In this document: positions 10,698 through 47,502 of the stretch, in pieces
Layout of the letters: every line of letters begins with the position of its first letter
Numbering within the stretch: position 1 is the first letter of the stretch
Sequence record: MK962756
DNA from: Shigella phage JK42
DNA length: 64,000 bases
Direction: 5' to 3' (one strand)
Translations under genes and position numbers: made by a program
The notes under the pieces: generated by a model
The model's input: only the letters and a program-made list of their open reading frames with translations
What the model was told of the DNA's origin: nothing
The model's database searches: none

Positions 10698-11444
10698 TTA
10701 ACCTTTAATCAGTTGGAATAATGATGCGCTAAGTGGTAAGCCACGTTTCAATTTTAATTTACCAATGAAACCAATCTTTTCAAAACGTTGCAGACCTTGG
10801 ATAACTTTATCATATGTATCGAAAAGCGATTCAGCGTCAGTTAATTTAGTTTTAGTTTTCCAGTCAGAGCCTTTAAGAAGAACGTTGAGTTTAGTAAGTT
10901 CATGGCCTTCTGCTTGATGTGAGCCATTAATGCGTGCTTTCAAAGCAACAATTCTAAGTTTAGATTCGTTAGATAAAGGTTGATTTTTCATCATGTTCGC
11001 CATATGCTTAACACGATTTTCACGTTTTGCTCGGATTTTTAAAATAGTATCATAAACCTTTTTAATTTGGGCCCATTTCTTCTCGTCGAGATTAAGTTTC
11101 TCTACTTTACAGGCAGAAGGATTAGCGATACGTCTTGCAACAGCGTCACGTTTCTCAATAAGTTCTTCTAATGTTAAATCAGAACGAGCCGTGTTATATT
11201 TTTTCTTAACCGGGATAACATTACCTTTAATGTAGCCGATATCGTTATTAAAACGTTCTAAGGATAATTTCTCACCTTCAACAGAGTTATTGAAAGATTC
11301 ACCTGAGTAAGCGCAGACCTTTTGATCAAGAATGTTTTTAAGGTAATTAAAGTCTAAGTTAAAATCCTTAGAGCGTCTCTTCGCAGAAGCTCTGGTGTGG
11401 TCAAGACGACGATTGATTTTGTTAATTTTATTATTTGATAACAT
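10698..11444 (-). CDS. srd: Srd-like protein (by position)
   Basis: 248 aa, basic and helical; position between dda.1 and modA as in T4; no motif-level confirmation. Confidence 0.45.
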   Translation of the reverse strand: MLSNNKINKINRRLDHTRASAKRRSKDFNLDFNYLKNILDQKVCAYSGESFNNSVEGEKLSLERFNNDIGYIKGNVIPVKKKYNTARSDLTLEELIEKRDAVARRIANPSACKVEKLNLDEKKWAQIKKVYDTILKIRAKRENRVKHMANMMKNQPLSNESKLRIVALKARINGSHQAEGHELTKLNVLLKGSDWKTKTKLTDAESLFDTYDKVIQGLQRFEKIGFIGKLKLKRGLPLSASLFQLIKG

Positions 11445-11597
11445 AATATTTTCCTCTGTCTTACGGACGTTAAGGTCATTTAGCTGATAAGCTTATAATA
11501 TCATGCCCTCAGGTAGTGTACACTCTTTTTTCGTAAAATGCTTTAATTTTTTATGTGTTATAATGGTTCTGAGTTCCATCCGGTTATTCCAATTCAG

Positions 11598-23095: not shown

Positions 23096-23644
23096 TTAAC
23101 GAGCCCATTTGATAATTTCTGTAATCAAATAATTACGTTCGCTTGCATTAAATCCTATAACTTTGTTAGCACCATCATGATTAAGTAATTGATACGTTTG
23201 GATTTTGTTATGAATTGCAAACTCTTCAAAATGTGAAATGACTGTATTAAAACCGAATGAAGACAAAGTAATAAGGTCGTCTTCAAAACTTTCAGTCATT
23301 TCGTTACGTGTTAAAATAATTGTGAACACATCATGGTTTTGGCAAAGACGAACATAGTCCTGTTCATAAACGTCAAGAATCGAGTCCGCATCTTGTCGAA
23401 TACGTCCATAAACCCAGTTACTAATATATCCACGGTCTAACAGATAAATCTTAGTAGGGTCTAAATAATTCAACATCGTTTCGAAACAGCCAACTTCATT
23501 TCGAGACTTAACATCGAAACGTCCATCAACTGTTCGTTTAGGGAAATCAATCTTTACATATCTTTCACTAATTTCCATTATGTCATTAATGAAAGTTGTT
23601 TTACCAGCATTATCCGGGCCATCTACTAAAATAATTTTAGCCAT
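23096..23644 (-). CDS. P-loop nucleotide/nucleoside kinase-like protein
   Basis: 182 aa; Walker A ILVDGPDNAGKTT in the thymidylate-kinase/deoxynucleoside-kinase style; occupies the T4 beta-gt locus. Confidence 0.5.
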   Translation of the reverse strand: MAKIILVDGPDNAGKTTFINDIMEISERYVKIDFPKRTVDGRFDVKSRNEVGCFETMLNYLDPTKIYLLDRGYISNWVYGRIRQDADSILDVYEQDYVRLCQNHDVFTIILTRNEMTESFEDDLITLSSFGFNTVISHFEEFAIHNKIQTYQLLNHDGANKVIGFNASERNYLITEIIKWAR

Positions 23645-23645
23645 T

Positions 23646-24545
23646 TTATTCCTCGATTACGACATCTTCATATTTAGGTATATTATACGGCGAAGAAATT
23701 AAAGCATTAAAGTAGATGAACTCACCAAGACCTGGATGGAATACTTCTTCAGGATTTTCGAAATATTGAATTTTCGGACGTCCTTTAAGAATTTGATAGT
23801 ACTCAGTTTTAGTTGGTTTAAAAATTCGAATCAGCGCTTCTTCAGGATACTTATTTCTGTCGAAGCTATTATTTGGATCGGTTATATAAAGCGGTTGACC
23901 TAATTGAATTGCGCATTCAACAACTTGTTCAAAACGATAGCATGGGTCACTAATTCGAAATGGATGAAAAATACCATCTAGATGAATAGGAGCCAAATCA
24001 CCTACAAGACGCTGCATGATGGAAGGACGTATAACTTTCTGCGTTACGATAATCTTATTACCATCTGCACCAGCGTTAACCAGCACTTCTTTTTGACGTT
24101 CATTCAACACAGTAGTTTGAAGTGAACGATTAACCGACAACATATCGGTTTTTAAGAATTCGTCAATATAAAAACGTGGTTTATTAGGGTCTGCAGTGAT
24201 ATTGAAATTGAATTCCACATCAAAAGCGCCGTCATATCCAGTGATATCTGTGATTAGAAAATCACAATCATAATAAGCAATTAATGAATCAACCACAAAT
24301 TCATTTTCAGACCAGAAATATTTACGAGTGTTATACGCGTTATCTTTATACCATAATGGAACAAACTTAAATTCTGGAAAAAGACGTTCGCATTCTTTAA
24401 TATCAGATGCATTACGTGGATATGTAATCACATCACCCGGATTAGCACGGTGCAAATGAAGTTGGAAGTTGCCATCCTTAAGGATAGCATACTGTCCAGT
24501 TTCATAAGACCGCATACTCAAGATAGGTACGCGGAAAATAGCCAT
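23646..24545 (-). CDS. hypothetical protein (beta-gt positional replacement)
   Basis: 299-aa ORF between the kinase-like gene and gene 42; no recognisable motif. Confidence 0.5.
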   Translation of the reverse strand: MAIFRVPILSMRSYETGQYAILKDGNFQLHLHRANPGDVITYPRNASDIKECERLFPEFKFVPLWYKDNAYNTRKYFWSENEFVVDSLIAYYDCDFLITDITGYDGAFDVEFNFNITADPNKPRFYIDEFLKTDMLSVNRSLQTTVLNERQKEVLVNAGADGNKIIVTQKVIRPSIMQRLVGDLAPIHLDGIFHPFRISDPCYRFEQVVECAIQLGQPLYITDPNNSFDRNKYPEEALIRIFKPTKTEYYQILKGRPKIQYFENPEEVFHPGLGEFIYFNALISSPYNIPKYEDVVIEE

Positions 24546-25261
24546 TAGTCAAGGAATCCTTTAACATAATCAAAATCACGTTCAAACACATGGGCACTTA
24601 CCATGGTATGAGTATAATCACCAACTTCTACACCACATTCATTAGCGATATAATGAAGTAATTTTCCTTGGAGATAAAAATCCAACTGCATAACAACAGC
24701 ACAGTTCTGAGAACGCATATGACAGTGGGTATAAAGCTTACCATCACGAATATAATAAGTCACTGAGTCAGTACATGGATATTCAAGCGTTTCGTCCGAA
24801 TCAAGCAAAGCCTGATCAGAACTTTCTAGAATTTGGAACACAACTCTTCGAGAGTTAGGCTTCTCTTTAAGTTCTTTTAGAAGAGCTGGTAATTGAGCCG
24901 CAATGCGAGGACCATAGAAAGTGTTGAAGTTCGCCGGCAAAACATCTGATTTTGGTTTAGAAATAAATTTAGCGACATTAGGATATGCCTTAAACGCTTC
25001 TTCTGCGTTGGTACCACCAGAAATCATAAACTTCCAGAAGTCTTCGGCATATTCATAAGAGATGCGGTTAATACGTGGGTCGGTCATTTTGAATGATGAT
25101 GGAGTGTCAACAACTACTGTCATAGACCCAATTTCATTACAACGTCCAATACGAGAATCAGTTACGAATTCCGGGTTTTCTAAAATTTCACGATTGACTG
25201 CTTTAAATGCGGTTTGAAAATCTGCGGCTTTGATATATTTCATTGTGTTATGTTTTCCCAT
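24545..25261 (-). CDS. 42: dCMP hydroxymethylase (thymidylate-synthase fold)
   Basis: 238 aa; SRRVVFQIL...YPCTDS...YIRDGKLY...HMRSQN aligns by eye with the T4 gp42 / thymidylate synthase active-site region. Confidence 0.7.
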   Translation of the reverse strand: MGKHNTMKYIKAADFQTAFKAVNREILENPEFVTDSRIGRCNEIGSMTVVVDTPSSFKMTDPRINRISYEYAEDFWKFMISGGTNAEEAFKAYPNVAKFISKPKSDVLPANFNTFYGPRIAAQLPALLKELKEKPNSRRVVFQILESSDQALLDSDETLEYPCTDSVTYYIRDGKLYTHCHMRSQNCAVVMQLDFYLQGKLLHYIANECGVEVGDYTHTMVSAHVFERDFDYVKGFLD

Positions 25262-25302: not shown

Positions 25303-25542
25303 TTATTTGAATTTCTTGGCAATGTTGATATAACGTAAAGCTTCAGCATCGATACTTCCAAGAACACTATGAAGAAATGCATCAGCGTAGTATTCCAATT
25401 GAACAGGTTCTTTAATCACTTTAGCCGCTTTAGTTTCAAACAGGCCCATCAGGGCCTTTTTAAGAATTTGTTCATTAGTGTTCAGTTTCATAGTCAAAAT
25501 CTCTTCATTAAGTTGGTGGTTAAAAGTTTTTCTAGAAATCAT
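25303..25542 (-). CDS. hypothetical small protein
   Basis: 79-aa ORF. Confidence 0.4.
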   Translation of the reverse strand: MISRKTFNHQLNEEILTMKLNTNEQILKKALMGLFETKAAKVIKEPVQLEYYADAFLHSVLGSIDAEALRYINIAKKFK

Positions 25543-26714
25543 TCCGGGTACCTCAAAGCGTCATCAGAGTTAGTTATATCAATAATAGATATAGAGTTTT
25601 CTGCTAACCCGTTTTTAGATAATTGACGTTTATAATATCTTTCACAATATGTACACGTCGTCCCGCAGATTTCATTAGCACAATCGAAATCTGGATGTCT
25701 GAACCACCTTTTTTCTAAAAAGCCATCTAACAAAGAGGTTTCAATATTTACTGTATGTGAAAACTCAGTTTCGTTTTCAAGAGTGAAAATAGTCTCTAAA
25801 GGCTTCCACAGTTCTAACAAATTACCTTCAAACTTTTCAGAAGCGTATGCTTCAAGAACTTTCAAAATGTAGTCTGTGCTACCTGTACGTCCTGAAACTT
25901 TGAATTGAGTGATACCAATATCATTATAAAGTTTCAAATCTTGAGGACGAACAAAACGAGTTCTCAGCCAGTTAAATGGGTCTGTATCACGAGCTTTAAT
26001 GCAGTGTTGCATTGGATATCCATTTAAGGATTTAGCATCATCAGCGGTAACATCAGTACTATGGAAAATATAGCAAGAGTCACGATAGCTACAATGTGTT
26101 GTATACCCTTTACCAGCATTAGAACAGAACTCATTTACAAGAACTTCAAATATTATATTGTTCTTATTGCAAAACTCTGCTGCACGCTTCAGGAAAGAAA
26201 CTGAACGGTTCTTATGAATTCCACAGCAGACCTTTTTGATATTATATTGGTCATGCAAGTATTTGATTTGAGTTACAGCATCGACATGTAGAATTGTTGA
26301 AACTTCAATCTCAATGTCTTTATTGACTTCACGAACAATTTCCATAACAACAGGGTTAGCGATAGTAATACGCCATACGCCTATTGACCAAAGATACTGA
26401 ACATAATCCTGAATAGCTTTCTTCTTCCACTCAACTAGTTCTCTTTTTGAACCAGGATTTATCGTGTTGAGTGTATAGTTAAAGCAAATACCTAATTCGT
26501 TACAACGTTTAACGTAATCTTCTAACATCTTTTTGTCAACGTCAGGAAGCCTAAAATCAGGTCTGGCTGCTACAAAAGCCATTTCTCTTGTAGAGCCGTA
26601 TACTTCGTTTATCAAGCTATTAGGATAAGTTTTATTGAGCTCTACGATTTTATCAAGAAGAGCTAAATCAAAATTCGTTCCGATTTTAAAAGTATTCATT
26701 TTTTTGCATCTCAC
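25539..26714 (-). CDS. Cys-rich protein with C-terminal CX4CX3CX2C cluster (possible Fe-S enzyme)
   Basis: 391 aa; ...FCSNAGKGYTTHCSYRDSCYIFH... and ...DFDCANEICGTTCTYCERYY... ; the CGTTCTYC segment fits the CX3CX2C pattern with an aromatic residue before the last Cys. Confidence 0.45.
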   Translation of the reverse strand: MRCKKMNTFKIGTNFDLALLDKIVELNKTYPNSLINEVYGSTREMAFVAARPDFRLPDVDKKMLEDYVKRCNELGICFNYTLNTINPGSKRELVEWKKKAIQDYVQYLWSIGVWRITIANPVVMEIVREVNKDIEIEVSTILHVDAVTQIKYLHDQYNIKKVCCGIHKNRSVSFLKRAAEFCNKNNIIFEVLVNEFCSNAGKGYTTHCSYRDSCYIFHSTDVTADDAKSLNGYPMQHCIKARDTDPFNWLRTRFVRPQDLKLYNDIGITQFKVSGRTGSTDYILKVLEAYASEKFEGNLLELWKPLETIFTLENETEFSHTVNIETSLLDGFLEKRWFRHPDFDCANEICGTTCTYCERYYKRQLSKNGLAENSISIIDITNSDDALRYPE

Positions 26715-26755: not shown

Positions 26756-27157
26756 TTATAGATTTGGTTTATATGATTTAAATGTTTCGAATTCGCCTTT
26801 ATTCATAAGAGCTTTGAATTCATCAGGACGCATAGCTTTGTCGTCGATAATCCAATCATATACTGGTTTATGTGTTAGCAAATTATGGTACTTCAAACCA
26901 ATGTTTTCCAAGTTCTGAATCAGACTTGGGAGAATGTCAATTGCTATACGACCAGGACCTACTGACTTCATACCACGAGCAGTGTAAAGCGTTATGGTAT
27001 GCCCTGCATCATACAGGGCATTAATGGCAGACACCATTTCGACGTCTGGTTTGAAGTTCACGTAATCACGATTGTTATTCCATTCCGTGATGCAATCATC
27101 GACATCAAAACAAAGATTAAGCATGTTTTCTACACGGTGCATTAGATTCGTTCCCAT
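26756..27157 (-). CDS. HAD-superfamily phosphatase-like protein
   Basis: 133 aa; motif I-like FDVDDCIT, later T, K and IIDDK acidic motif. Confidence 0.5.
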   Translation of the reverse strand: MGTNLMHRVENMLNLCFDVDDCITEWNNNRDYVNFKPDVEMVSAINALYDAGHTITLYTARGMKSVGPGRIAIDILPSLIQNLENIGLKYHNLLTHKPVYDWIIDDKAMRPDEFKALMNKGEFETFKSYKPNL

Positions 27158-28827
27158 TGATGAGTGATATCGCCACCGATTGGACGATAGGAAACACCAG
27201 TTTCTTTATCAGTTAGTACCCATTTACCAGGATTTTTTGTAATCAGAGTAGCCGTTACAGGTTCTGCTACGTCATAACTAATAGAGCCGTCCTGAAGTAC
27301 ACGGCCCATGTTACGTAATTGCTTAGTCAGAAGTTCCATACCTTTATAATATGCGGCTACCGCTTTAAGTGGATTATTCTTGAAATAACCACCTAATGCA
27401 ATCCAGATAATTGCCACTGCCAAATGATGATACTCGTTAAACGAACTCATCTTTCCATATTTGTAAACTAATGGATTGATGTTAATAGTCACATTACAAG
27501 TTGTTTCATCAATAGTAAACTGCCCCCAGGTCGGATTAGCATTGAATTCATCATAACCTGAAACAGCATAAAGCACTTTAGCTTCATCATACAATTTTGG
27601 CCCGTAAATCTTGGTTTCGCCAAAATATCCACGAGGGTCGATAAACTTGACTTCGCCGTTATCAGTAATCATAGTATTACTGAAGTTCGGGTCACCATGA
27701 ATAACAGAGTACTGTCCCTGAGAACGGTTATGATAACGAATAAGGTGTTCTAAAGCTTGTTTCAGCATTGGCTTCAGACGTCCAATCTTAGTGTAGTTCA
27801 CATGTGTGATTTTACCAAATGAATCAATCAATGGTTGAATGCTTTCACAACGATCAATAACTTTCGTATAGAATTCTTTAGTGAAATCACGACGAACAGT
27901 TTCAGGACTTACAAAATAAGTGTCTGTGCTGAATTTCAGTGCATCTAAAATTGCATCAATAATTTGTGGACGAGCAAGACTTGATTTTGATTTAATATAT
28001 TCAAATGCCGGCTTACCTTTAATGCGTTCCATTTCAAAGTTATTTTCATTAACAGAAACTAACTGAGGAACTGAATCTGATTTCACTTTCAAATACCACG
28101 AAATCTCATCTTTCTGAAGAGCTCGACCATGTTCGGTTAATGCGAATTTAGTTACAGTTTCTTCGCCAATTTCAACTGCATTAAAACTACGATTAAGTTC
28201 ACGAACTTCATGAGCCTTTTCAAGTTTAGGCATATCACCTAAATCAATTATATTCATAAGCTCTGATTTATTGAATGCGCTGCCGTAAAGGAATTCTACG
28301 AAATCACGTCCTTTGCAGTATTCATGAATTTCCTCATCGGTAGAACCCATATAGAATTCCCAGTCTTTGAACTGATAAATTCCTACAACATTACCACCTG
28401 TTGAACCTACGTTAGTGATATTTTCACCGTCGAAATTATATCGACATTCGTCACCCTTAACATAGATTGCGTTAACATTCCAAGACCATGAACCAAAATC
28501 AGGAATAATATCACACCAGTTAACAATTACATTATGGCCGTCTAAATCTTTGTGTAATTTAGCAAGAGCATAAGCAGAACCATACGCTTCATCAACTGTA
28601 CGAATAGTCACATTGAACCCTTCTTGCTCACAATAAGCTCGAACAGTTTCAGCAAATTTTGAATGAACTACTACAATAATTTCATCTGCGCCAAGGTCAG
28701 AATAAATTGTATACAAATTGCTCAGAATAGTGTCTTGTTTATAATTAACAAGCACCTTAGGAATATGATGCGTTATTGGATACAAACGAGTTGCCAGTCC
28801 AGCACCAAGAATAACAGCTTTTTTCAT
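27142..28827 (-). CDS. bifunctional sugar-1-phosphate nucleotidyltransferase (N-term) / APH-fold anomeric sugar kinase (C-term)
   Basis: 561 aa; N-term MKKAVILGAGLATRLYPITHHIPKVLV resembles RmlA/MurU-type NTases; C-term ...VIHGDPNFSNTMITDNGEVKFIDPRGYFG is the HGDxxxxN...D kinase motif of APH/choline-kinase/AmgK-type kinases. Confidence 0.7.
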   Translation of the reverse strand: MKKAVILGAGLATRLYPITHHIPKVLVNYKQDTILSNLYTIYSDLGADEIIVVVHSKFAETVRAYCEQEGFNVTIRTVDEAYGSAYALAKLHKDLDGHNVIVNWCDIIPDFGSWSWNVNAIYVKGDECRYNFDGENITNVGSTGGNVVGIYQFKDWEFYMGSTDEEIHEYCKGRDFVEFLYGSAFNKSELMNIIDLGDMPKLEKAHEVRELNRSFNAVEIGEETVTKFALTEHGRALQKDEISWYLKVKSDSVPQLVSVNENNFEMERIKGKPAFEYIKSKSSLARPQIIDAILDALKFSTDTYFVSPETVRRDFTKEFYTKVIDRCESIQPLIDSFGKITHVNYTKIGRLKPMLKQALEHLIRYHNRSQGQYSVIHGDPNFSNTMITDNGEVKFIDPRGYFGETKIYGPKLYDEAKVLYAVSGYDEFNANPTWGQFTIDETTCNVTININPLVYKYGKMSSFNEYHHLAVAIIWIALGGYFKNNPLKAVAAYYKGMELLTKQLRNMGRVLQDGSISYDVAEPVTATLITKNPGKWVLTDKETGVSYRPIGGDITHQWERI

Positions 28828-28868: not shown

Positions 28869-29012
28869 CTAGTTAAAGCATTCATACTTTGCTTGTAGTC
28901 CAATCATAATCCATCCAATTACAAGTGTTGGAATCATTACCGGAGCCGTTAAGCTCCAGTAGATAGTCATGACAAGCATCAATAGTAAAAGTCCTATTGT
29001 TATTGCTTTCAT
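28869..29012 (-). CDS. small predicted membrane protein
   Basis: Hand translation: MKAITIGLLLLMLVMTIYWSLTAPVMIPTLVIGWIMIGLQAKYECFN (47 aa); start overlaps the SIS gene stop (ATGA); below the ORF-track cutoff. Confidence 0.3.
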   Translation of the reverse strand: MKAITIGLLLLMLVMTIYWSLTAPVMIPTLVIGWIMIGLQAKYECFN

Positions 29013-29644
29013 TGTTCGCCTCGTAACATGGCACCTAGTGCACCGCCTGGATGGAACTTAAGGAAATCATTAGAGGTAAATCCACGTTCAGACGAAAGGT
29101 TGATAGCAAACGTATCGATAAGTGCTAACAACAATGTAGTGGACATCGTCGGAGCTAAAGAGTTCTCGTCAACTTCTACCGCGATACCGGTGCAGAACGT
29201 ATAATCAAAAAGAGCTTCGTATTCTTGTGGAATGTCAGGGTTACAATGTAACAGAATCTGTTTAACCTGAGGACGAATCATACGAAGATGTTTAGCAACA
29301 CCTATCATTTCTTCAGTTTTACCAGAACGACTAATATGAATCAACACGTCATTAGGCGCAATAAATCCTGCGTCACCATGAGAATAATGCCCGGTGTTCA
29401 AATACATGCTAGGAATACCTAGTGAAGCAAAAGTCTCGGAAGCTTTAGTTGCGATATTAGCATTCTTACCAACACCTGTAATAATTACCCGGCTTTCATA
29501 ATTACTAAGTCCAGGGCGTCGAAGAGTTTCTAGAATAGCATTATAACGAGCAGGGTTTTGACTAATTACTTTAGCCATAGTGGCAAGAGATGAAGCTTGT
29601 TTTACGATTGCGTCAATAGCGATAGTAATAGGAGTAGTTTTCAT
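29009..29644 (-). CDS. SIS-domain sugar-phosphate isomerase, KdsD/GutQ-like (arabinose-5-phosphate isomerase) without CBS domains
   Basis: 211 aa; VIITGVGKNANIATKASETFASLGIPSMYLNTGHYSHGDAGFIAPNDVLIHISRSGKTEE aligns with the remembered KdsD SIS core (GMGKSGHIGKK...HGDLGMV...ISNSGES). Confidence 0.7.
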   Translation of the reverse strand: MKTTPITIAIDAIVKQASSLATMAKVISQNPARYNAILETLRRPGLSNYESRVIITGVGKNANIATKASETFASLGIPSMYLNTGHYSHGDAGFIAPNDVLIHISRSGKTEEMIGVAKHLRMIRPQVKQILLHCNPDIPQEYEALFDYTFCTGIAVEVDENSLAPTMSTTLLLALIDTFAINLSSERGFTSNDFLKFHPGGALGAMLRGEQ

Positions 29645-29684: not shown

Positions 29685-30114
29685 TCAAAAATCAAACATA
29701 TCGAACAGAGATGCTTTCTTCTCGTAATCGAGTTTAGCTGCTGATGTGAATCCTTCAAGTGGTTTAATAAATGTCTTCTCAAGGAGAACAGTGTAGTCCA
29801 TCCAATGAAGTACATCGTCTTTAATTAAATCTGTGATTTCAGTACCAGAAGGCCATGCGATACATTTATCACCGAATGGGTTTCCTTCACGTAAAGGCAG
29901 AACATATACTTTTTCACCTTCTACAACTTGTGGTGCATCAATATTACCTTTGATAGCTCGGTTATATGTCAGAATTCCACGTATATGGAACGGGCATTTA
30001 GGACCCGGGAATCCACCTACGTCGTATTTAGCAATGTTATTCGCAGAAGATACCGACGCGATGCTAATATAATTCAATTGACGGAATTCTTTTTCAAACT
30101 CTTTAAAATATTCT
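29685..30114 (-). pseudogene. detached 3' segment of gene 43 encoding the polymerase C-terminal region and clamp-binding tail
   Basis: In the polymerase frame this segment encodes ...EGFTSAAKLDYEKKASLFDMFDF, the expected gp43 C-terminus; separated from the main ORF by the duplication. Confidence 0.6.
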
Positions 30115-30502
30115 ACTTCATTGGATGGCTGATGTGAATCCTTCAAGTGGTTTAATAAATGTCTTCTCAAGGAGAACAGTGTAGTCCATCCAATGAAGTA
30201 CATCGTCTTTAATTAAATCTGTGATTTCAGTACCAGAAGGCCATGCGATACATTTATCACCGAATGGGTTTCCTTCACGTAAAGGCAGAACATATACTTT
30301 TTCACCTTCTACAACTTGTGGTGCATCAATATTACCTTTGATAGCTCGGTTATATGTCAGAATTCCACGAATATGGAACGGGCATTTAGGACCCGGGAAT
30401 CCACCTACGTCGTATTTAGCAATGTTATTCGCAGAAGATACCGACGCGATGCTAATATAATTCAATTGACGGAATTCTTTTTCAAACTCTTTAAAATATT
30501 CT
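29740..30502. repeat. 375-bp direct repeat, two copies (29740-30114 and 30128-30502), joined by a 13-bp spacer
   Basis: Read directly: copies identical except one mismatch (t/a near 29986/30374); the spacer acttcattggatg is the reverse complement of catccaatgaagt found inside the repeat; period 388 bp is not a multiple of 3. Confidence 0.9.
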
Positions 30503-32784
30503 TGTAATGATTCTTCACCTTCTTGAAGCATACGACGAATACATTCTTTAAGAGCTTTCTGTACTGCTTTAGGGGTCGAAGATTTCTGAGTCTCTAGACC
30601 CATGATTTTGAGTTTAGGCTCAGCGTATCTGGTTCCTTCCATATCCCACACGTTTAATGCATAACGTTTCTTACCAGTCCAGAATCCACCAATACCTTTA
30701 GAACCGAGCGGAGGACCAGCGATAGCTTCTCGGTCCATGAACATTAAGTGTTGTTTATTGTTCATGTATTCACACATTTCACGGAAACCTTTATCAATAG
30801 CTGGTTCCATACGTTCACGAGCGAACTTATCTAAGAAGTCTACCCAATGGTTGGTATCACGGAATTTAGATTCACCAACCTTATCAATAATTTTATCTGC
30901 AGATACGTAAATGGAGTCTGTATCACCATATAGAACGAAAGCTTCACCTTCTGTACCACAAACTTCATTCAGATATTCATTAACTTTACGTTCAATCCAC
31001 TGTAAAGCCATTTGTCCGAATGTTGTGATTGCAGTAGCATTACGCAAATCATAATAACGGAACCAAACGTTGCCAAGTGCACCATAAAGTGAGTTGATAA
31101 GCAATTTACGGTTAATTTGTGCGGTCATACCTGCAACTTCAGTACGTTGAGCTCTAAACAACATTTCATTAAGAGATTTAGCAGACAACTTTTTAATCTT
31201 TTCTTTAATCTCATCACTGAAGTCGAAACGATAATCAACATCTAATGGTTCGTCAACAGAAAGATTAGGATTATGCAATGCCTCTTTAATTATTTCGCCG
31301 TTACGTTGAGCCGCAAGCATGTAACCTTTATGTTCTTTACGTTGATTAAAGACCTTAGTGATTTCAGTTGGAACTACACCATCACGGTCTTTATAATACA
31401 TCATGCCGTTAGGAGAGCAACTGTACACATCTGAAGGACGTTCAGCGATTGCGTTAATATAATCATGCAGTGGAGCTACTTTAAACGTTCCTGCTATTGT
31501 TTCCGGGCTAATATTCACTTGGCGAATAATACTTGGATACAGAGATGTAAGGTCGAAACTCATTACATATTTGTATCGATTTGGAATAGGTTCCTTAACA
31601 AAAGCGCCAGGATAAGGTTGAACCGGGTGAGAACGACCTTGTGGAATCACCTTGTTTTGTTCTTTAAGGCTATTAAAAATAATAGCATCCCAAGTTTTAA
31701 TTGGACTGAACACAGATTGAATCTGAATTTTAGCATAATAACCCATGTCCAAGCTCAAGTTGATGAACTGACGCTTAGAATCAATTTGCAATACACGATA
31801 CACGTCGATAATGTTATAAGAAATATATCGTTGGTGATTGCTTTCACGAAGCTTAGAAATAGGGCCGTCATATTTCAGTTTACCAACGTTCAATTCAAAT
31901 TCTGAAATGTAATCCAGAGAATACGACGGTTGATTGGTAAAAGAGAATTTTTTGTAAAGGTCAATGTAATCAAGAACAGAGATACCGAACAATGTAATGA
32001 TTTCACGAGAACCATACATGTTTTCGATAACTTTAACACGAGTTTTACGATGTGGCGATAAACGTTTCGCAGTAGATTCGCCAAAAATATTCTTGATTCG
32101 GTTATACACATATGGAATATCAAATGACTCAACGTTCCATCCAGTCAAAATGACAGGAGTTTTCTGTTGCCAGAAGTTGAGATATTCCATCAACAATTCT
32201 TTTTCGTTATCGAACGGCATATAAATGATTTTATCGATAATTTCAGATGGAACTTCATCACCGCCTTGTTCTTGAAGCTTAGCAGCGATTTCAATAGACC
32301 ATTCTTCTACATTACCATATGGAGAATTCAATAGATCAAATACGTAGAACCTGTCGTCAATTGAGTCATAATGGGTGATAGCATCAATCGGATGTTTTGC
32401 TTGTGACGGCTCAGGGAACCCATCCGGAGATGTTACTTCGATGTCGAAGTTAGCCACACGAATTTTTGTATGGTCGTATTTGATTTCATAGTTATAAGTG
32501 TCAGACAAATACGCCAATTTGAAATCGTCCATGCCAAGTGCTTCAAGTCCGATATCTTCCATGCGTTTAATCCATTGGGAGGCATCACGCATATTAGCGA
32601 ACAGCTTACGAGTACACGGCTTACCGTAGATATCGAAATATTTCGTAGCCTGACTTTCTGGACAATGAGCAAACAGTGATGGTTTATATTCTACTTCACG
32701 AGTACGTTCACGGCCATTAGAATCGATGTAACGTTCAAAAATTGAATCACCAATCTGTTCAACCGTTAAGTAAAATTCTTTCAT
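30118..32784 (-). CDS. 43: DNA polymerase (family B), C-terminally truncated by the duplication frameshift
   Basis: 888 aa; MKEFYLTVEQIGDSIFERYIDSNGRERTREVEYKP... matches remembered T4/RB69 gp43; the ORF ends ...EGFTSAIQ instead of the clamp-binding tail. Confidence 0.9.
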   Translation of the reverse strand: MKEFYLTVEQIGDSIFERYIDSNGRERTREVEYKPSLFAHCPESQATKYFDIYGKPCTRKLFANMRDASQWIKRMEDIGLEALGMDDFKLAYLSDTYNYEIKYDHTKIRVANFDIEVTSPDGFPEPSQAKHPIDAITHYDSIDDRFYVFDLLNSPYGNVEEWSIEIAAKLQEQGGDEVPSEIIDKIIYMPFDNEKELLMEYLNFWQQKTPVILTGWNVESFDIPYVYNRIKNIFGESTAKRLSPHRKTRVKVIENMYGSREIITLFGISVLDYIDLYKKFSFTNQPSYSLDYISEFELNVGKLKYDGPISKLRESNHQRYISYNIIDVYRVLQIDSKRQFINLSLDMGYYAKIQIQSVFSPIKTWDAIIFNSLKEQNKVIPQGRSHPVQPYPGAFVKEPIPNRYKYVMSFDLTSLYPSIIRQVNISPETIAGTFKVAPLHDYINAIAERPSDVYSCSPNGMMYYKDRDGVVPTEITKVFNQRKEHKGYMLAAQRNGEIIKEALHNPNLSVDEPLDVDYRFDFSDEIKEKIKKLSAKSLNEMLFRAQRTEVAGMTAQINRKLLINSLYGALGNVWFRYYDLRNATAITTFGQMALQWIERKVNEYLNEVCGTEGEAFVLYGDTDSIYVSADKIIDKVGESKFRDTNHWVDFLDKFARERMEPAIDKGFREMCEYMNNKQHLMFMDREAIAGPPLGSKGIGGFWTGKKRYALNVWDMEGTRYAEPKLKIMGLETQKSSTPKAVQKALKECIRRMLQEGEESLQEYFKEFEKEFRQLNYISIASVSSANNIAKYDVGGFPGPKCPFHIRGILTYNRAIKGNIDAPQVVEGEKVYVLPLREGNPFGDKCIAWPSGTEITDLIKDDVLHWMDYTVLLEKTFIKPLEGFTSAIQ

Positions 32785-44405: not shown

Positions 44406-44876
44406 TTAATCATGTTTCCACACCCCATCGGTATTTGACCAAAGTCGCTGATTATCTGATCCTCGCCACAGCTTTTTAGTCGGAAGATTTTTCTCATACT
44501 TCCCATCAATAATAACATCAACATATTTAAGCATTTCTAGTTGTTTAATATCTTCAAACTTATATCCTGTCCACAACCAAATGCTTTTATTGGGATAAAG
44601 ATTTTTTACTGTTTGAGCAATGCAATGAATAACATCTCGGTTATCAGGATAGAGAGGGTCACCTCCGGTTATAGTTAATCCTTCTATATAATCATTATTC
44701 AAACATTCAATTAACTGTTCTAGTGTTTCACCAGTGAATGGAACACCATTTCTAGCATTCCATGTTGATTTATTATAACACCCTTCGCATTTATGCAAAC
44801 AACCCGTAACGAAAAGAACGACCCTGCATCCAGGGCCATTCACAAAATCGCAAGGATAAAATCTATCATAATTCAT
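44406..44876 (-). CDS. nrdG: anaerobic ribonucleotide reductase activating protein (radical SAM)
   Basis: 156 aa; Cys cluster CLHKCEGCYN and overall NrdG-like sequence. Confidence 0.88.
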   Translation of the reverse strand: MNYDRFYPCDFVNGPGCRVVLFVTGCLHKCEGCYNKSTWNARNGVPFTGETLEQLIECLNNDYIEGLTITGGDPLYPDNRDVIHCIAQTVKNLYPNKSIWLWTGYKFEDIKQLEMLKYVDVIIDGKYEKNLPTKKLWRGSDNQRLWSNTDGVWKHD

Positions 44877-46690
44877 TGGTGTTTAACCCTATGCATGATT
44901 TCTTTATTTTTACCGAGATTAAATCCGCGTTCGTTCGGATTTCCCAAATAACCACATGTTCTTCTTATTGTGTTCATCTTTTTAGGATCAGTTTCTCCAC
45001 AAATAGAACAAACAAATCCGTTTTCAGTAGGAGTCATTTCATGGGTACTTCCACATGTAAAACATTTATCCACTGGCATATTAACACCAAAATAATCTAA
45101 ATGTTGTGCAGCATAATCCCAGACGGCCTCAAGTCCCTTTAAATTGTTTTTCATATCTGGAAGTTCAACATAAGAAATGTGACCACCTGTCGCTATGAAA
45201 TGATATGGCGCTTCACGAGAAATCTTTTCAAACGGAGTAATATTTTCTTCTACTGAAACATGGAAACTATTAGTGTACCAACCTTTATCAGTAACATCCT
45301 TTACACTTCCATATTTTTCTGTATCAAGTTTACAGAAGCGGTAACAAAGGTTTTCAGCAGGAGTAGAATACAAACTAAAAGCAAATCCAGTTCTTTCGGA
45401 CCACTGTTTAAGATGAGCATTCATTTTAGTTAAAATTTCTTGCCCAATATCACGACCGACAAGAATATTCAATTCGTGAATACCAATGTATCCTAAAGAC
45501 ACTGAACTTCTACCGTTTTTAAATAACTCAATTATGTCGTCATCAGGTTTAAGACGAACCCCGAATGCACCTTCTTGGTAAAGAATAGGAGCAACAGTCG
45601 CTTTAACTCCTTTTAAGGAACTAATTCTACACATCAAAGCTTCAAAACACAGATCCATTCGTTCATTGAACAATTCGATAAATTTCTGTTCATTGAACTG
45701 TGTTCCAATATAAGAATCTAGCGCAATACGAGGAAGATTTAATGTTACAACACCGAGATTATTACGTCCATCAAGAATTTCATTACCAGTCGAATCTTTC
45801 CATACGCTCAAGAAACTACGGCAACCCATCGGAGAAACAGGAACTGAAGAACCGGTAATAGCTTTATTATTCTTAACCGAAATAATGTCAGGATACATTC
45901 TTTTGCTTGCACATTCTAACGCAAGTTGTTTAATATCATAGTTTGGATCATCTTTATAAAGATTAACACCTTCTTCAACAAACATAACAAGTTTAGGAAA
46001 AATAGGAGTTATTCCATCACGACCAAGACCTTTAATGCGGTTTTTAAGAATTGCCTTCTGAATCATTCGTTCAGTCCAGTCAGTTCCCGTACCAAATGTA
46101 ATTGTTACAAAAGGCGTTTGTCCGTTTGAACTAAAGAGAGTATTTACTTCGTATTCATAAGCTTGGAATGCGTCATAGACATCTTTTTCTGTTTTAGATT
46201 GAGCATAATTCAACGCATCAGCGATTTGCCATTTTTCTGCATCTTCAACATGTTTAGCGTATGTGCGTTTAACATAAGGAGAAAGAACTTTATCTACATT
46301 CGCAAATGTAGTTCCGCCATACTGGTGTGAAGCAACTTGTGCGGTAATTTGTGCCATAATTGCAGTAGCAACACCAATCGATTTAGGCGTTTCAATTTGA
46401 GCATTGCCTAATTTAAATCCGTTCTCAAGCATTCCCTTTAAATCTACTAAACAGCAATTAGTAAAAGGCAATGATATACTGTAATCTAAATCGTGAAAAT
46501 GAATTAACCCGGCATTATGAGCATTTACAATATGGCTCGGAAGAATACTACAAGCGATATGTTTAGAAACAATACCGGCCATTAAATCTCTTTTTGTTGG
46601 AAAGACACGAGAATCTTTGTTGGCATTTTCGGTATTTAATTCTTTATCTTTATTTGAAATAAAATTTAAAACATCTTTCTCTAAAGACAT
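44873..46690 (-). CDS. nrdD: anaerobic ribonucleoside-triphosphate reductase
   Basis: 605 aa; C-terminal zinc ribbon CFTCGSTHEMTPTENGFVCSICG and glycyl-radical region RTCGYLG; uninterrupted (no intron). Confidence 0.9.
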   Translation of the reverse strand: MSLEKDVLNFISNKDKELNTENANKDSRVFPTKRDLMAGIVSKHIACSILPSHIVNAHNAGLIHFHDLDYSISLPFTNCCLVDLKGMLENGFKLGNAQIETPKSIGVATAIMAQITAQVASHQYGGTTFANVDKVLSPYVKRTYAKHVEDAEKWQIADALNYAQSKTEKDVYDAFQAYEYEVNTLFSSNGQTPFVTITFGTGTDWTERMIQKAILKNRIKGLGRDGITPIFPKLVMFVEEGVNLYKDDPNYDIKQLALECASKRMYPDIISVKNNKAITGSSVPVSPMGCRSFLSVWKDSTGNEILDGRNNLGVVTLNLPRIALDSYIGTQFNEQKFIELFNERMDLCFEALMCRISSLKGVKATVAPILYQEGAFGVRLKPDDDIIELFKNGRSSVSLGYIGIHELNILVGRDIGQEILTKMNAHLKQWSERTGFAFSLYSTPAENLCYRFCKLDTEKYGSVKDVTDKGWYTNSFHVSVEENITPFEKISREAPYHFIATGGHISYVELPDMKNNLKGLEAVWDYAAQHLDYFGVNMPVDKCFTCGSTHEMTPTENGFVCSICGETDPKKMNTIRRTCGYLGNPNERGFNLGKNKEIMHRVKHQ

Positions 46691-47502
46691 AATTCTAATT
46701 TATCCTTTTGAAATTCTTCGTCTAAATATGGGTTCCAACCCATTTTAAACCTTTTGATGAAATTATCAATTCTAAATTTCGGTAAGTTTAAATCCGCAAA
46801 AATAGATGATTTACTTTTAAAATCTGGACCTAAATAATCATATAAAATTTCTGCGTATTTTAACCATAATATATAAGTACCAGATTTAATTGCTCTCGGA
46901 GTTTTCCAAGGTTTTACGCCGTACATCGGATTTCCACTTCCTTTATGCCTGATAGAAGATGAAATTCCAATTTTAATTTTAGCTTCCTTTGTGTGCGAAA
47001 ATCCATGATGTGGATTTTCTTTCCAGTATTTTTTAGAAGCTTCTGATATTTTCTTTCTGGCTAAATTAGTATGATGCTTTCCATAAAATCCATGATTTTT
47101 ACCTTTATTACGATTTCTTTTAATCATGGTTATTGATTGCTTTTCTCTAGTTTCTTTAGAAGGAGAAACACCGTACGTTGTAAATTGACCATTAGCATAT
47201 GCTAAATTAAAATACTCTTTATTCCATATATCTTTTTCTATATTCTTTTGAAATTCAGCTTCAATGCTAGTTATTTGTTCATCTCCGACTAATTGAAAAT
47301 ATAATATTTCAACTTTCGGTGTTTCTTTCAACAGAGCTTTTTGAAATTCGGAAGATGACGAAGACGAATAATAAAATTTACCATTTTTATCAATAATATT
47401 CGTTCCGTCAAAAGTGCAATTGGTTTTACTTCCAATATAATAATATGGCGGGGTTTTAGCATTAATTCTACTAATAAATGATAGTTTATATACTACATTC
47501 AT
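46681..47502 (-). mobile_element. free-standing GIY-YIG homing endonuclease (Seg-like)
   Basis: 273 aa; N-terminal VYKL...YYIGSKT GIY-YIG-type motif, basic C-terminal region; wedged between 49 and nrdD, overlapping both. Confidence 0.55.

What the first reader, a model, noticed from the sequence alone, without database searches (positions are those of the whole stretch)
25539..26714. Cys-rich 391-aa protein with a C-terminal CX4CX3CX2C cluster inside the DNA-sugar module
The protein carries FCSNAGKGYTTHCSYRDSCYIFH and a C-terminal DFDCANEICGTTCTYCERYY; the last segment fits a CX3CX2C pattern with an aromatic residue before the final Cys, as in radical-SAM-type [4Fe-4S] sites, although its C-terminal position is atypical. 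Sitting between gene 42 and the NDP-sugar genes, an Fe-S enzyme here could tailor the sugar (epimerisation, dehydration, C-methylation) or the base. I have no homology evidence.
Basis: inference. Interest (0 to 1): 0.6.

Follow-up and report, generated by a model that had tools for sequence, protein, structure and literature searches.

The report
Phage U32-family Fe-S hydroxylase candidate
This Cys-rich phage protein is a diverged member of the U32 family of oxygen-independent Fe-S hydroxylases, not a radical-SAM enzyme, and most likely lets the phage make the 5-hydroxycytosine base of its sugar-coated DNA when no oxygen is available.

Summary
The ORF and both Cys motifs are real, conserved and under strong purifying selection. 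The window is an RB69-like Mosigvirus, and the protein is RB69 gp50. It matches Pfam Peptidase_U32 and aligns by profile with E. coli TrhP/RlhA/UbiU/UbiV (99%), which are prephenate-dependent, O2-independent [4Fe-4S] hydroxylases; RlhA and TrhP hydroxylate pyrimidine C5. The central Cys cluster sits where the U32 Fe-S site lies. The C-terminal four Cys form a second conserved metal site whose spacing varies, so it is not a radical-SAM signature. RB69 DNA is now known to carry arabinosyl-5-hydroxycytosine, made by the neighbouring ThyA homolog using flavin and O2. Comparative genomics points to gp50 as the anaerobic route. In sister phages and in anaerobe phage or prophage loci the U32 gene is coupled to chorismate mutase or DAHP synthase, which supply prephenate. 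In loci binned to strict anaerobes it sits beside homologs of the same glycosyltransferase and sugar-activation genes, with no ThyA homolog nearby. Phages of obligate aerobes (57 Acinetobacter phage records) carry the ThyA enzyme but no detectable U32. The function is inferred, not demonstrated. I found no published statement of it, but two key papers were not readable.

The parts
25539..26714 (-). U32-family protein gene (RB69 gp50 ortholog). 391 aa from the GTG start; the probable true start is the ATG at 26699 (386 aa).
   Evidence: ORF list and translation. Pfam PF01136 at 42.2 bits against a cut-off of 22.4. hhalign against TrhP/RlhA/UbiU/UbiV gives 99%, E 3.2e-17. AF2 model pLDDT 94, pTM 0.92, and the top PDB fold hit is 5d88, a U32 protein. 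RB69 NC_004928 is 99.5% identical at the protein level.
25842..26420 (-). Region matching the Pfam Peptidase_U32 domain (aa 99-291).
26001..26126 (-). Metal site 1: C197, C208, C214, C238 (CX10CX5CX23C). It occupies the position of the canonical U32 [4Fe-4S] motif, preceded by E190, which aligns with TrhP E162.
   Evidence: The hhalign alignment maps C208 to TrhP C170, C214 to C177, C238 to C197 and E190 to E162. Conservation is C197 99%, C208 100%, C238 100%, position 214 Cys 62% / His 38%. TrhP E162/C170/C177 are essential (PMC6599085).
25644..25682 (-). A second conserved four-Cys site, either a second Fe-S cluster or structural Zn.
   Evidence: Invariant in 121 relatives and 93-94% conserved in the broad family. 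Spacing varies as C-X3-4-C-X2-3-C-X2-C. In the model it is a short beta bridge followed by a helix N-terminus.
25303..25542 (-). 79-aa partner gene ('type B') whose ATG overlaps the U32 stop (ATGA). Function unknown; it is not a detectable chorismate mutase.
   Evidence: Junction sequence. No CM_2 or NCBIfam hit. hhalign against phage CMs gives 0.4%. Only shallow homologs exist, some truncated. AF2 pLDDT 62, four helices.
24545..25261 (-). ThyA-homolog 5-hydroxy-dCMP synthase (RB69 gp48 ortholog): the flavin- and O2-dependent enzyme for which the U32 is proposed to be the anaerobic counterpart.
   Evidence: Pfam Thymidylat_synt. 100% identical to other Mosigvirus copies. Function shown experimentally in PMC13326640.
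23646..24545 (-). DNA arabinosyltransferase 1 (RB69 gp46:47 ortholog, intact here). Its homologs flank the U32 gene in anaerobe-derived phage loci.
   Evidence: PMC13326640 Table 1. tblastn hits in L024, L028, L029 and L030 with E from 5e-8 to 1e-15. Metagenomic GT homologs also hit L031, L033, L034, L036 and L037.
23096..23644 (-). Thymidylate-kinase-like nucleotide kinase (RB69 gp45 ortholog).
   Evidence: PMC13326640 Table 1. Tmk-like kinases recur beside the U32 in metagenomic loci.
26756..27157 (-). HAD-type phosphatase (AfhF-like, RB69 gp51).
27142..28827 (-). Bifunctional kinase / NDP-sugar pyrophosphorylase (AfhE-like, RB69 gp52:53, intact here).
   Evidence: Pfam NTP_transferase plus kinase-like hits
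29009..29644 (-). SIS-domain arabinose-5-phosphate isomerase (RB69 gp55).
   Evidence: Pfam SIS
44406..46690 (-). Context only: NrdG (44406-44876) and NrdD (44873-46690), the anaerobic ribonucleotide reductase pair. They show that the phage already carries an O2-sensitive anaerobic nucleotide enzyme.
   Evidence: Pfam NRDD 571 bits and Gly_radical; Fer4_12 and Radical_SAM

Best explanation
The gene encodes a diverged, single-polypeptide member of the U32 family of O2-independent, prephenate-dependent Fe-S hydroxylases (relatives: RlhA, TrhP, UbiU/UbiV). My proposal is that it hydroxylates C5 of deoxycytidylate, or less likely cytosine already in DNA, to give 5-hydroxycytosine without O2. It would then be the anaerobic counterpart of the neighbouring flavin/O2-dependent 5-hydroxy-dCMP synthase (gp48), so that the phage can still build arabinosyl-5-hydroxycytosine DNA in anoxic hosts. 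Inferred mechanism, following the published proposal for UbiU/UbiV: the pyrimidine is oxidised by two electrons; prephenate decarboxylates and delivers the hydroxyl oxygen, leaving phenylpyruvate and CO2; the electrons leave through the site-1 [4Fe-4S] cluster (C197/C208/C214/C238), possibly onward through the C-terminal four-Cys site, to an unknown acceptor. The product would then follow the known route of dNMP kinase, polymerase and arabinosyltransferases. This Mosigvirus has no chorismate mutase of its own, so prephenate would come from host PheA/TyrA. Shown here: family membership, fold, conservation of the two Cys sites, and the gene-neighbourhood patterns. Inferred: Fe-S content, prephenate use, the substrate and the anaerobic role.
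For: (1) Family. PF01136 scores above its cut-off. hhalign against TrhP/RlhA/UbiU/UbiV gives 99%, E 3e-17, and aligns the essential TrhP residues E162/C170/C177 to E190/C208/C214. The model is a confident TIM barrel whose top PDB match is the U32 structure 5d88. (2) Known family chemistry. RlhA is required for ho5C and TrhP for ho5U; both need prephenate and not O2. UbiU/V bind [4Fe-4S] clusters through the homologous Cys, and prephenate is their O donor. (3) The product fits. RB69 DNA contains arabinosyl-5-hydroxycytosine, and the known synthase gp48 takes its oxygen from O2 (18O2 labelling). (4) Coupling to prephenate supply. An AroQ chorismate mutase (CM_2 above the gathering score) lies between the U32 and the ThyA homolog in 51 phage records, all from U32-bearing genera, out of 50,697 records. 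A DAHP synthase::CM fusion sits directly upstream of the U32 in L034. The order is U32-CM-GT in the Romboutsia loci L036/L037, there is a CM in L031, and a DAHP synthase sits directly downstream in L024. (5) Displacement of the ThyA enzyme. Loci from metagenomes and from MAGs of strict anaerobes carry the U32 beside homologs of gp46:47 GT, SIS, AfhE and HAD, but no ThyA-like gene was found in any of 34 loci. (6) Oxygen-niche pattern. The gp48-type enzyme without a detectable U32 occurs in 57 Acinetobacter and about 25 Rhizobium/Agrobacterium phage records. Both enzymes occur in 221 phages of Enterobacterales and Shewanella. Only the U32 occurs in the anaerobe loci. (7) Nucleotide-level neighbours recur: dCMP deaminase, Tmk-like kinases, dUTPase/DCD, NT5C, dNK. 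(8) The same window encodes NrdD/NrdG, a precedent for an anaerobic nucleotide enzyme in this phage.
Against: There is no biochemical or genetic test of this protein. The canonical U32 Cys spacing (CX6CX15CX3/4C) is not kept: the third canonical ligand aligns to a Pro, and a different Cys (C197) must be assumed as the fourth ligand. I could not measure Cys-Cys distances in the model. The window's own partner gene is not a chorismate mutase, and the window has none elsewhere, so the CM argument comes from relatives. E. coli Dhakaviruses such as Bp7 lack the U32 although their host is a facultative anaerobe, so the gene is accessory rather than required. Absence of a ThyA-type gene in the anaerobe loci was checked only within about 7-8 kb of the U32. 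Even for RlhA and TrhP, direct hydroxylase activity has not been reconstituted in vitro. Taxonomic binning of phage contigs into MAGs can be wrong.
Confidence: 0.6

Rival explanations
1. A U32 hydroxylase with a different substrate. It could hydroxylate cytosine in DNA after replication, or host tRNA/rRNA pyrimidines (as TrhP and RlhA do) to tune translation, rather than acting on free dCMP.
For: All characterised nucleic-acid U32 enzymes act on polymers (RlhA on 23S rRNA, TrhP on tRNA). The family chemistry and the link to prephenate fit equally well.
Against: RB69 replaces all of its cytosine, which the known pathway achieves at the mononucleotide level. Tmk-like kinases, dCMP deaminase, dUTPase/DCD, NT5C and dNK recur next to the gene, which points to nucleotide substrates. 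The gene lies inside the DNA-modification operon next to the GT, which is hard to explain for an RNA target.
Confidence: 0.15
2. A redox enzyme that acts on the sugar or another heterocycle. This covers the 'sugar or heterocycle reductase' label in PMC13326640 Table 1 and the first reader's suggestions of sugar epimerisation, dehydration or C-methylation.
For: The gene is placed between the NDP-sugar genes and the base-modifying gene. The label is given. In L024 it sits next to an RmlD-like epimerase/reductase.
Against: DLP3, which lacks the gene, is experimentally shown to make arabinosyl-5hoC; Konradin and Dhakavirus Bp7 carry the same SIS/AfhE/HAD/GT set without it. Only arabinose was found attached to 5hoC in RB69. 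No U32 member is known to act on sugars. Coupling to CM and DAHP synthase is unexplained by this idea.
Confidence: 0.07
3. A radical-SAM-type enzyme that uses the C-terminal CX3CX2C as its SAM-binding [4Fe-4S] site.
For: C350-X3-C354-X2-C357 with Y356 before the last Cys matches the textbook motif. Radical SAM/SPASM genes lie near some relatives.
Against: There is no Radical_SAM, Fer4_12 or SPASM hit, whereas NrdG in the same window is detected. The fold is U32. A fourth conserved Cys (C345) would occupy the Fe that SAM needs. The spacing is CX2CX2C in about half of the family. The motif lies after the barrel, at the C-terminus.
Confidence: 0.03
4. A real protease (collagenase/PrtC-like), as most GenBank records annotate it, or an Fe-S protein whose role is unrelated to DNA modification.
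For: Database names such as 'peptidase', 'collagenase-like protease' and 'putative protease'.
Against: These names come from an old family label. The characterised U32 members are involved in hydroxylation. The conserved synteny with base- and sugar-modification genes in unrelated phage lineages argues against an unrelated role.
Confidence: 0.05

Closest known systems
RlhA (E. coli YdcP), required for 23S rRNA 5-hydroxycytidine C2501 formation
   Same: U32 domain. Makes 5-hydroxy-cytosine, the same base chemistry as the RB69 modification. Prephenate-dependent. The essential E161/C169/C176 have counterparts in the phage protein.
   Different: RlhA is 653 aa with extra domains, has the canonical CX6CX15CX3C motif, and acts on one rRNA position. 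The phage protein is 386 aa, has CX10CX5CX23C plus a C-terminal four-Cys site, and pairwise similarity is insignificant.
TrhP (YegQ) with TrhO: dual tRNA ho5U34 pathways
   Same: A U32, prephenate-dependent, O2-independent enzyme paired with an unrelated O2-dependent enzyme that makes the same C5-hydroxypyrimidine. The phylogenetic logic matches too: both enzymes in organisms living with and without O2, and U32 alone in anaerobes. TrhP is the reference row of the hhalign match to the combined TrhP/RlhA/UbiU/UbiV profile.
   Different: The substrate is tRNA uridine. TrhP has a C-terminal U32_C domain. The aerobic partner is a rhodanese-family protein rather than a flavin-dependent ThyA homolog.
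UbiU-UbiV, anaerobic ubiquinone hydroxylases
   Same: U32 Fe-S proteins. One [4Fe-4S] per subunit is bound by four Cys at the homologous position. Prephenate is shown to be the O donor. They are the anaerobic counterpart of flavin monooxygenases. The only NCBIfam hit of the phage protein is a weak UbiU match.
   Different: UbiU-UbiV is a heterodimer with two clusters and needs UbiT, and its substrate is a lipid quinone. The phage protein may carry both metal sites in a single chain.
RB69 gp48 / DLP3 gp80 / HY126 homolog: ThyA-family 5-hydroxy-dCMP synthase
   Same: The proposed product is the same (5hodCMP), it is in the same operon, and it uses the same downstream kinase and glycosyltransferases.
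   Different: An unrelated fold (thymidylate synthase), a flavin cofactor, and oxygen taken from O2.
Mk0906 (PDB 5d88), U32 protein from Methanopyrus kandleri
   Same: The best structural match (Foldseek E 8.5e-7, TM 0.69 normalised to the target). PMC13326640 also reports it for RB69 gp50.
   Different: 11% identity, 247 aa, function unknown, and it lacks the C-terminal four-Cys extension.

Membership tests
Peptidase U32 family (PF01136), in the sense of the O2-independent hydroxylases RlhA/TrhP/UbiU/UbiV | Sequence match to the U32 domain above the curated threshold | tested here: met
   PF01136 E 7.5e-11, 42.2 bits against a cut-off of 22.4, aa 99-291. All 120 listed relatives but three carry PF01136.
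Peptidase U32 family (PF01136), in the sense of the O2-independent hydroxylases RlhA/TrhP/UbiU/UbiV | Homology to the experimentally characterised members | tested here: met
   hhalign of the family profile against TrhP/RlhA/UbiU/UbiV gives probability 99.0%, E 3.2e-17, over 323 columns. Pairwise phmmer alone is insignificant.
Peptidase U32 family (PF01136), in the sense of the O2-independent hydroxylases RlhA/TrhP/UbiU/UbiV | U32 TIM-barrel fold | tested here: met
   AF2 pLDDT 94, pTM 0.92. The top PDB hit is 5d88, a U32 protein, and the other hits are generic TIM barrels.
Peptidase U32 family (PF01136), in the sense of the O2-independent hydroxylases RlhA/TrhP/UbiU/UbiV | Residues shown to be essential in TrhP (E162, C170, C177) and RlhA (E161, C169, C176) | tested here: met
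   They align to E190, C208 and C214. E190 is Glu in 93 of 124, C208 is Cys in 124 of 124, and position 214 is Cys in 77 and His in 46 of 124. Essentiality is taken from PMC6599085.
Peptidase U32 family (PF01136), in the sense of the O2-independent hydroxylases RlhA/TrhP/UbiU/UbiV | Canonical four-Cys motif CX6CX15CX3/4C (or the UbiU/UbiV variants) | tested here: not met
   The phage protein has CX10CX5CX23C and the family has C-X3-10-C-X5-[C/H]-X20-25-C. The third canonical Cys aligns to P234, and C197 is a family-specific extra Cys. Four conserved ligand candidates are present at the right place, but with a different arrangement.
Peptidase U32 family (PF01136), in the sense of the O2-independent hydroxylases RlhA/TrhP/UbiU/UbiV | Binds a [4Fe-4S] cluster | not testable with these tools
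   This needs anaerobic purification with UV-vis, EPR and Fe/S analysis.
Peptidase U32 family (PF01136), in the sense of the O2-independent hydroxylases RlhA/TrhP/UbiU/UbiV | Prephenate dependence | not testable with these tools
   There is only indirect support: coupling to CM_2 genes in 51 phage records and in L031, L036 and L037, a DAHP synthase::CM fusion in L034, and a DAHP synthase in L024. The window itself has no CM.
Peptidase U32 family (PF01136), in the sense of the O2-independent hydroxylases RlhA/TrhP/UbiU/UbiV | O2-independent hydroxylation of an aromatic or heteroaromatic carbon | not testable with these tools
   There is only distributional support: relatives are found in strict-anaerobe MAGs, and none was detected in phages of obligate aerobes.
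Radical SAM superfamily | Match to Radical_SAM, Fer4_12/14 or SPASM profiles | tested here: not met
   U32 is the only hit at E<=0.01. As a positive control, NrdG in the same window hits Fer4_12 (163 bits) and Radical_SAM.
Radical SAM superfamily | Conserved three-Cys CX3CX2C motif that leaves one Fe free for SAM, located near the N-terminus of the barrel | tested here: not met
   There are four conserved Cys. The spacing CX3CX2C is found in only about half of the family, with CX2CX2C in the rest. The motif lies at the C-terminus, after the barrel.
AroQ (type II) chorismate mutase, considered for the 79-aa coupled partner gene 25303..25542 | Match to CM_2 / TIGR chorismate mutase profiles | tested here: not met
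   No hit even at E<=10, and hhalign against the phage CMs gives 0.4%. The partners in Entb_45 and Thanatos-2 do match (40.9 and 32.8 bits against a cut-off of 27).

The most novel reading that the evidence does not exclude
A viral clade of U32 enzymes, single-chain and with two metal sites, performs prephenate-dependent, O2-independent C5-hydroxylation of deoxypyrimidine nucleotides. It is the only route to glycosylated 5-hydroxypyrimidine DNA in phages of strict anaerobes, and an anaerobic back-up in phages of facultative anaerobes such as RB69. These phages carry chorismate mutase, or DAHP synthase::chorismate mutase, as auxiliary metabolic genes to supply the organic oxygen donor. This would be the first U32 hydroxylase acting in DNA metabolism, and would imply that hypermodified 5-hydroxypyrimidine DNA is widespread in gut and other anoxic viromes.
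Probability: 0.5. Interest if true: 0.85.

Novelty: new variant of a known kind. Interest (0 to 1): 0.72.

Why it matters
The recently established pathway to arabinosyl-5-hydroxycytosine DNA depends on molecular oxygen, yet RB69-type phages prey on gut Enterobacteria that are often anoxic. An O2-independent hydroxylase in the same operon would explain how the anti-restriction DNA modification is kept up without oxygen. It would extend prephenate-dependent U32 chemistry from RNA and quinones to DNA precursors. It would offer a soluble nucleotide substrate for a family whose activity has never been reconstituted in vitro. It would also give a function to a family with more than 1,000 clusters at 50% identity, found mostly in phages and anaerobes and currently annotated as 'peptidase'. 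Finally, it predicts a new class of phage auxiliary metabolic genes (chorismate mutase, DAHP synthase), and it predicts that phage sensitivity to restriction and other DNA-targeting defences may depend on oxygen, which matters for phage therapy in the gut.

Tried and rejected
(1) Sequence search of the PDB with the single protein and with the family profile found nothing meaningful; the only hit was BIM1 at E 0.015, which I take as chance. (2) Pairwise phmmer against E. coli UbiU/UbiV/RlhA/TrhP was insignificant, and only profile-profile comparison worked. (3) The afdb50 fold library was unavailable. (4) Model coordinates are not exposed, so Cys-Cys distances at the two metal sites could not be measured. 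(5) I tested whether the window's 79-aa partner is a diverged chorismate mutase and rejected it. Its AF2 model was too poor (pLDDT 62) to justify a fold search. (6) An HMM search for a CM elsewhere in the window gave only a weak, fragmented 16-bit hit at 10701-11492(-), which has no Pfam family, so I treat it as spurious. (7) The radical-SAM reading was rejected, as set out under the rival explanations. (8) Mahler et al. 2025 (Cell Host Microbe) and He et al. (phage HY126) could not be read, so I cannot rule out that they comment on this gene. Five full-text searches found no paper linking U32 to phage 5-hydroxycytosine. (9) The Thanatos paper modelled TH1_057-065, which includes the U32 homolog, but reports nothing on it.
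Full report
OBSERVATION. The C-terminal cluster is C345-X4-C350-X3-C354-X2-C357 with Tyr356 before the last Cys. The protein has 3.4% Cys against a median of 1.2% for the window's ORFs, and four Cys within 13 residues has a chance probability of about 0.002. Homologs start at the internal ATG (26699), so the protein is probably 386 aa. I keep the 391-aa numbering here. The gene is under strong purifying selection: 11 synonymous and 0 non-synonymous differences against phage phiE142, and 160 against 42 for a relative with 89% protein identity.

WHERE WE ARE. The window is an RB69-like T4-type phage (Mosigvirus). The protein is 99.5% identical to the RB69 product annotated 'peptidase' (RB69ORF050c / NP_861740), and 179 phage records hold the gene by nucleotide search. 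The gene order on the minus strand is:
- gp43 DNA polymerase
- SIS arabinose-5-P isomerase (29009-29644)
- bifunctional kinase/NDP-sugar pyrophosphorylase (27142-28827)
- HAD phosphatase (26756-27157)
- this gene
- a 79-aa gene whose ATG overlaps this gene's stop codon (25303-25542)
- a ThyA homolog (24545-25261)
- a glycosyltransferase (23646-24545)
- a Tmk-like kinase (23096-23644)
- UvsX

. A 2026 paper (PMC13326640) shows that RB69 DNA carries arabinosylated 5-hydroxycytosine, not arabinosyl-hmC. It also shows that the ThyA homolog (gp48) makes 5-hydroxy-dCMP using a flavin, with the oxygen coming from O2 (18O2 labelling). That paper lists gp50 only in a table, as a putative 'sugar or heterocycle reductase' based on a fold hit to PDB 5d88, and does not discuss it. 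Its Discussion mentions the two tRNA pyrimidine-hydroxylation pathways without connecting them to gp50.

WHAT THE PROTEIN IS. It matches Pfam Peptidase_U32 above the curated cut-off (42.2 bits against 22.4), a call already made in 2006 (PMC1524935). Pairwise similarity to the four E. coli U32 paralogs is insignificant. However, a profile of 124 family members aligns with TrhP/RlhA/UbiU/UbiV at 99% probability, E 3e-17. An AlphaFold2 model is confident (pLDDT 94, pTM 0.92) and is a TIM barrel whose best PDB match is the only solved U32 protein, 5d88. The U32 'peptidases' that have been characterised are in fact involved in O2-independent hydroxylation:
- UbiU/UbiV each bind a [4Fe-4S] cluster through four conserved Cys, and prephenate is their oxygen donor (PMC6747719, PMC10990095).
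- RlhA is required for 5-hydroxycytidine in 23S rRNA, and TrhP for 5-hydroxyuridine in tRNA. Both need prephenate, and E162/C170/C177 of TrhP are essential (PMC6599085).

THE TWO CYS CLUSTERS. In the profile alignment, TrhP E162, C170, C177 and C197 correspond to phage E190, C208, C214 and C238. The third canonical ligand (TrhP C193) aligns to Pro234. The family-invariant C197 lies in a 10-residue insertion that the model shows as a beta-hairpin. Across 124 sequences down to about 28% identity, C197, C208 and C238 are 99-100% conserved, and position 214 is Cys (62%) or His (38%), which is typical of a metal ligand. The C-terminal four Cys are also conserved, invariant in 121 close relatives and 93-94% in the broad set. 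Their spacing drifts, however: (4,3,2), (3,2,2), (4,2,2) and (3,3,2) are about equally common. Combined with the absence of any radical-SAM profile hit, while NrdG in the same window scores strongly, this rules out the radical-SAM analogy. Site 2 is either a second Fe-S cluster, which would give one chain the two clusters found in the UbiU-UbiV heterodimer, or a structural zinc site. I cannot tell which.

COMPARATIVE GENOMICS: LINK TO PREPHENATE. In Enterobacter phage Entb_45 and Shewanella phage Thanatos-2, the small gene that overlaps the U32 stop codon is an AroQ chorismate mutase (CM_2 at 40.9 and 32.8 bits against a cut-off of 27). This phage CM occurs in 51 of 50,697 phage records, all from U32-bearing genera and always inside the U32-ThyA block. 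Yersinia TG1 and Pectobacterium PM2 have the order U32 - 'type B' small gene - CM - ThyA homolog. The window's Mosigvirus lineage keeps only the type-B gene, which is not a detectable CM, and the window has no CM elsewhere. It would therefore have to rely on host PheA/TyrA.

The link recurs in unrelated elements:
- L034 (a contig binned to a Gastranaerophilaceae MAG): AfhE-like - HAD - SIS - DAHP synthase::chorismate mutase fusion - U32 - gp46:47-like GT.
- L036/L037 (Romboutsia MAGs): U32 - CM - GT - AfhE-like.
- L031 (Erysipelotrichales MAG): U32 ... CM - 192-aa gene - GT.
- L024 (a metagenomic phage contig): GT - SIS - AfhE-like - U32 - class I-beta DAHP synthase, which scores 237 bits against 63 for KDO8P synthase.

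COMPARATIVE GENOMICS: DISPLACEMENT AND OXYGEN NICHE. The family is large: 1185 clusters at 50% identity with E<=0.001. Relatives at about 50% identity sit in phage replication and nucleotide modules, next to dCMP deaminase (with overlapping genes), Tmk-like kinases, UDG-family proteins, dUTPase/DCD, NT5C, dNK and PolIII-alpha. In nine loci they lie beside homologs of RB69's first DNA arabinosyltransferase. None of 34 such loci has a ThyA-like gene, by tblastn, iterative HMM search or the precomputed Pfam tables. So the U32 occupies the slot that the ThyA-type hydroxylase holds in T4-like phages.

All 25 hits in species-representative genomes are from strict-anaerobe or gut lineages. Conversely, the gp48-type enzyme is found in 57 Acinetobacter and about 25 Rhizobium/Agrobacterium phage records, all phages of obligate aerobes. 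The U32 search returned 221 records, whose listed hosts are Enterobacterales and Shewanella. The Acinetobacter phage Konradin locus shows HAD directly abutting the ThyA homolog, exactly where the U32 pair is inserted in the window.

The pattern is ThyA-type only in aerobes, both in facultative anaerobes, and U32 only in anaerobes. It mirrors TrhO/TrhP and UbiIHF/UbiUV. The same window also encodes NrdD/NrdG, the anaerobic ribonucleotide reductase pair. One exception is that E. coli Dhakaviruses such as Bp7 have the cluster without the U32, so the gene is accessory.

MOST LIKELY MECHANISM (inferred). gp50 is a prephenate-dependent, O2-independent C5-hydroxylase that makes 5-hydroxy-dCMP (less likely 5hoC in DNA) when O2 is lacking, feeding the same kinase, polymerase and arabinosyltransferase route. 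Following the published proposal for UbiU/V, the pyrimidine is oxidised by two electrons, prephenate decarboxylates and donates hydroxide (leaving phenylpyruvate and CO2), and the electrons leave through the site-1 cluster, and perhaps site 2, to an unknown acceptor. Invariant polar residues (R51, N83, S139, R170, K272, R276, Y290) are candidates for binding the phosphate and the prephenate carboxylates. A nucleotide-level substrate is favoured by the recurrent NMP kinases and deaminases nearby, and by the complete replacement of C in RB69. I put the whole statement at about 0.6. That it is a U32-family metalloprotein is close to certain.

RIVALS. A U32 hydroxylase acting on DNA or host RNA (0.15). 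A sugar or heterocycle redox role (0.07); this is disfavoured because DLP3, which lacks the gene, is shown to make arabinosyl-5hoC, and Bp7 has the same sugar genes without it. Radical SAM (0.03). A protease or an unrelated function (0.05).

NOVELTY. The gene and its Pfam label are known. The functional reading, the coupling to CM and DAHP synthase, the displacement of the ThyA-type enzyme in anaerobe phages, and the two-site Cys architecture were not found in any searchable paper. Two relevant subscription papers could not be read. I classify it as a new variant of a known kind: a viral U32 hydroxylase clade tied to DNA metabolism, with a non-canonical ligand arrangement.

Noticed in passing
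window 29685-30591 (copies 29740-30039 and 30128-30427): A tandem direct duplication with 388-bp spacing at the 3' end of the DNA polymerase gene (gene 43). The repeat finder reports two 300-nt copies at 100% identity, while my exact base-by-base extension ran 242 nt, so the exact extent is unresolved. As a result the 888-aa polymerase ORF ends '...EGFTSAIQ*', and a separate 172-aa ORF (29685-30203) repeats the last ~150 aa and carries the normal C-terminus '...AAKLDYEKKASLFDMFDF'. The duplication is absent from the close relative phiE142 (L003), where the stretch occurs once. It could be an assembly artefact or a real variant that truncates the polymerase's C-terminal tail.
   Followed up: partly
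window 25303-25542 (-); L012:7158-7502, L014:7158-7502: The N-terminus of the 79-aa 'type B' partner (consensus ..INHKLNEE..) resembles the N-terminal extension of the 114-aa chorismate mutases of phages EcS1 and Serratia CBH8 (MRRINHMMNE..). This could be a shared U32-docking peptide or a recombination remnant. Some Mosigviruses carry versions of type B truncated to 47-58 aa, which suggests relaxed constraint.
   Followed up: partly
L022:7185-7982; L032, L035, L038-L043 immediately upstream of the U32 match: In diverse anaerobic bacteria and an archaeon, the U32 relative is paired with a conserved ~265-aa protein (44-53% identity across phyla) that has only a weak AGOG / HhH N-glycosylase hit (E 0.11). 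In L022 the pair sits with NT5C, a PnuC-like transporter, dNK, a radical SAM/SPASM protein, a second very divergent U32 paralog and a nucleoside deoxyribosyltransferase. This looks like a nucleoside or nucleobase salvage or modification cluster of unknown function.
   Followed up: partly
L029:4777-13179: A metagenomic phage contig in which the U32 gene is flanked by a Gly_transf_sug glycosyltransferase, a gp46:47-like GT, a weak TET-associated glycosyltransferase (TAGT) match, dUTPase/dCTP deaminase and UDP-galactopyranose mutase. This suggests a galactofuranosylated hydroxypyrimidine DNA made without a ThyA- or TET-type enzyme.
   Followed up: no
window 23646-24545 and 27142-28827: The glycosyltransferase (299 aa) and the kinase/pyrophosphorylase (561 aa) are single intact ORFs here. 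This agrees with the statement in PMC13326640 that their split into gp46/47 and gp52/53 in the RB69 reference record is a sequencing error.
   Followed up: yes
window 46681-47502 (-): A 273-aa ORF with a NUMOD3 motif, typical of homing endonucleases, lies immediately upstream of nrdD and overlaps it.
   Followed up: no
L002:7001-8391 (Shewanella phage Thanatos-2): In Thanatos-2 the U32-CM pair has moved to the other end of the modification cluster, after the Tmk-like kinase and next to uvsX, but the two genes remain overlapping. This shows that they travel as a unit.
   Followed up: yes
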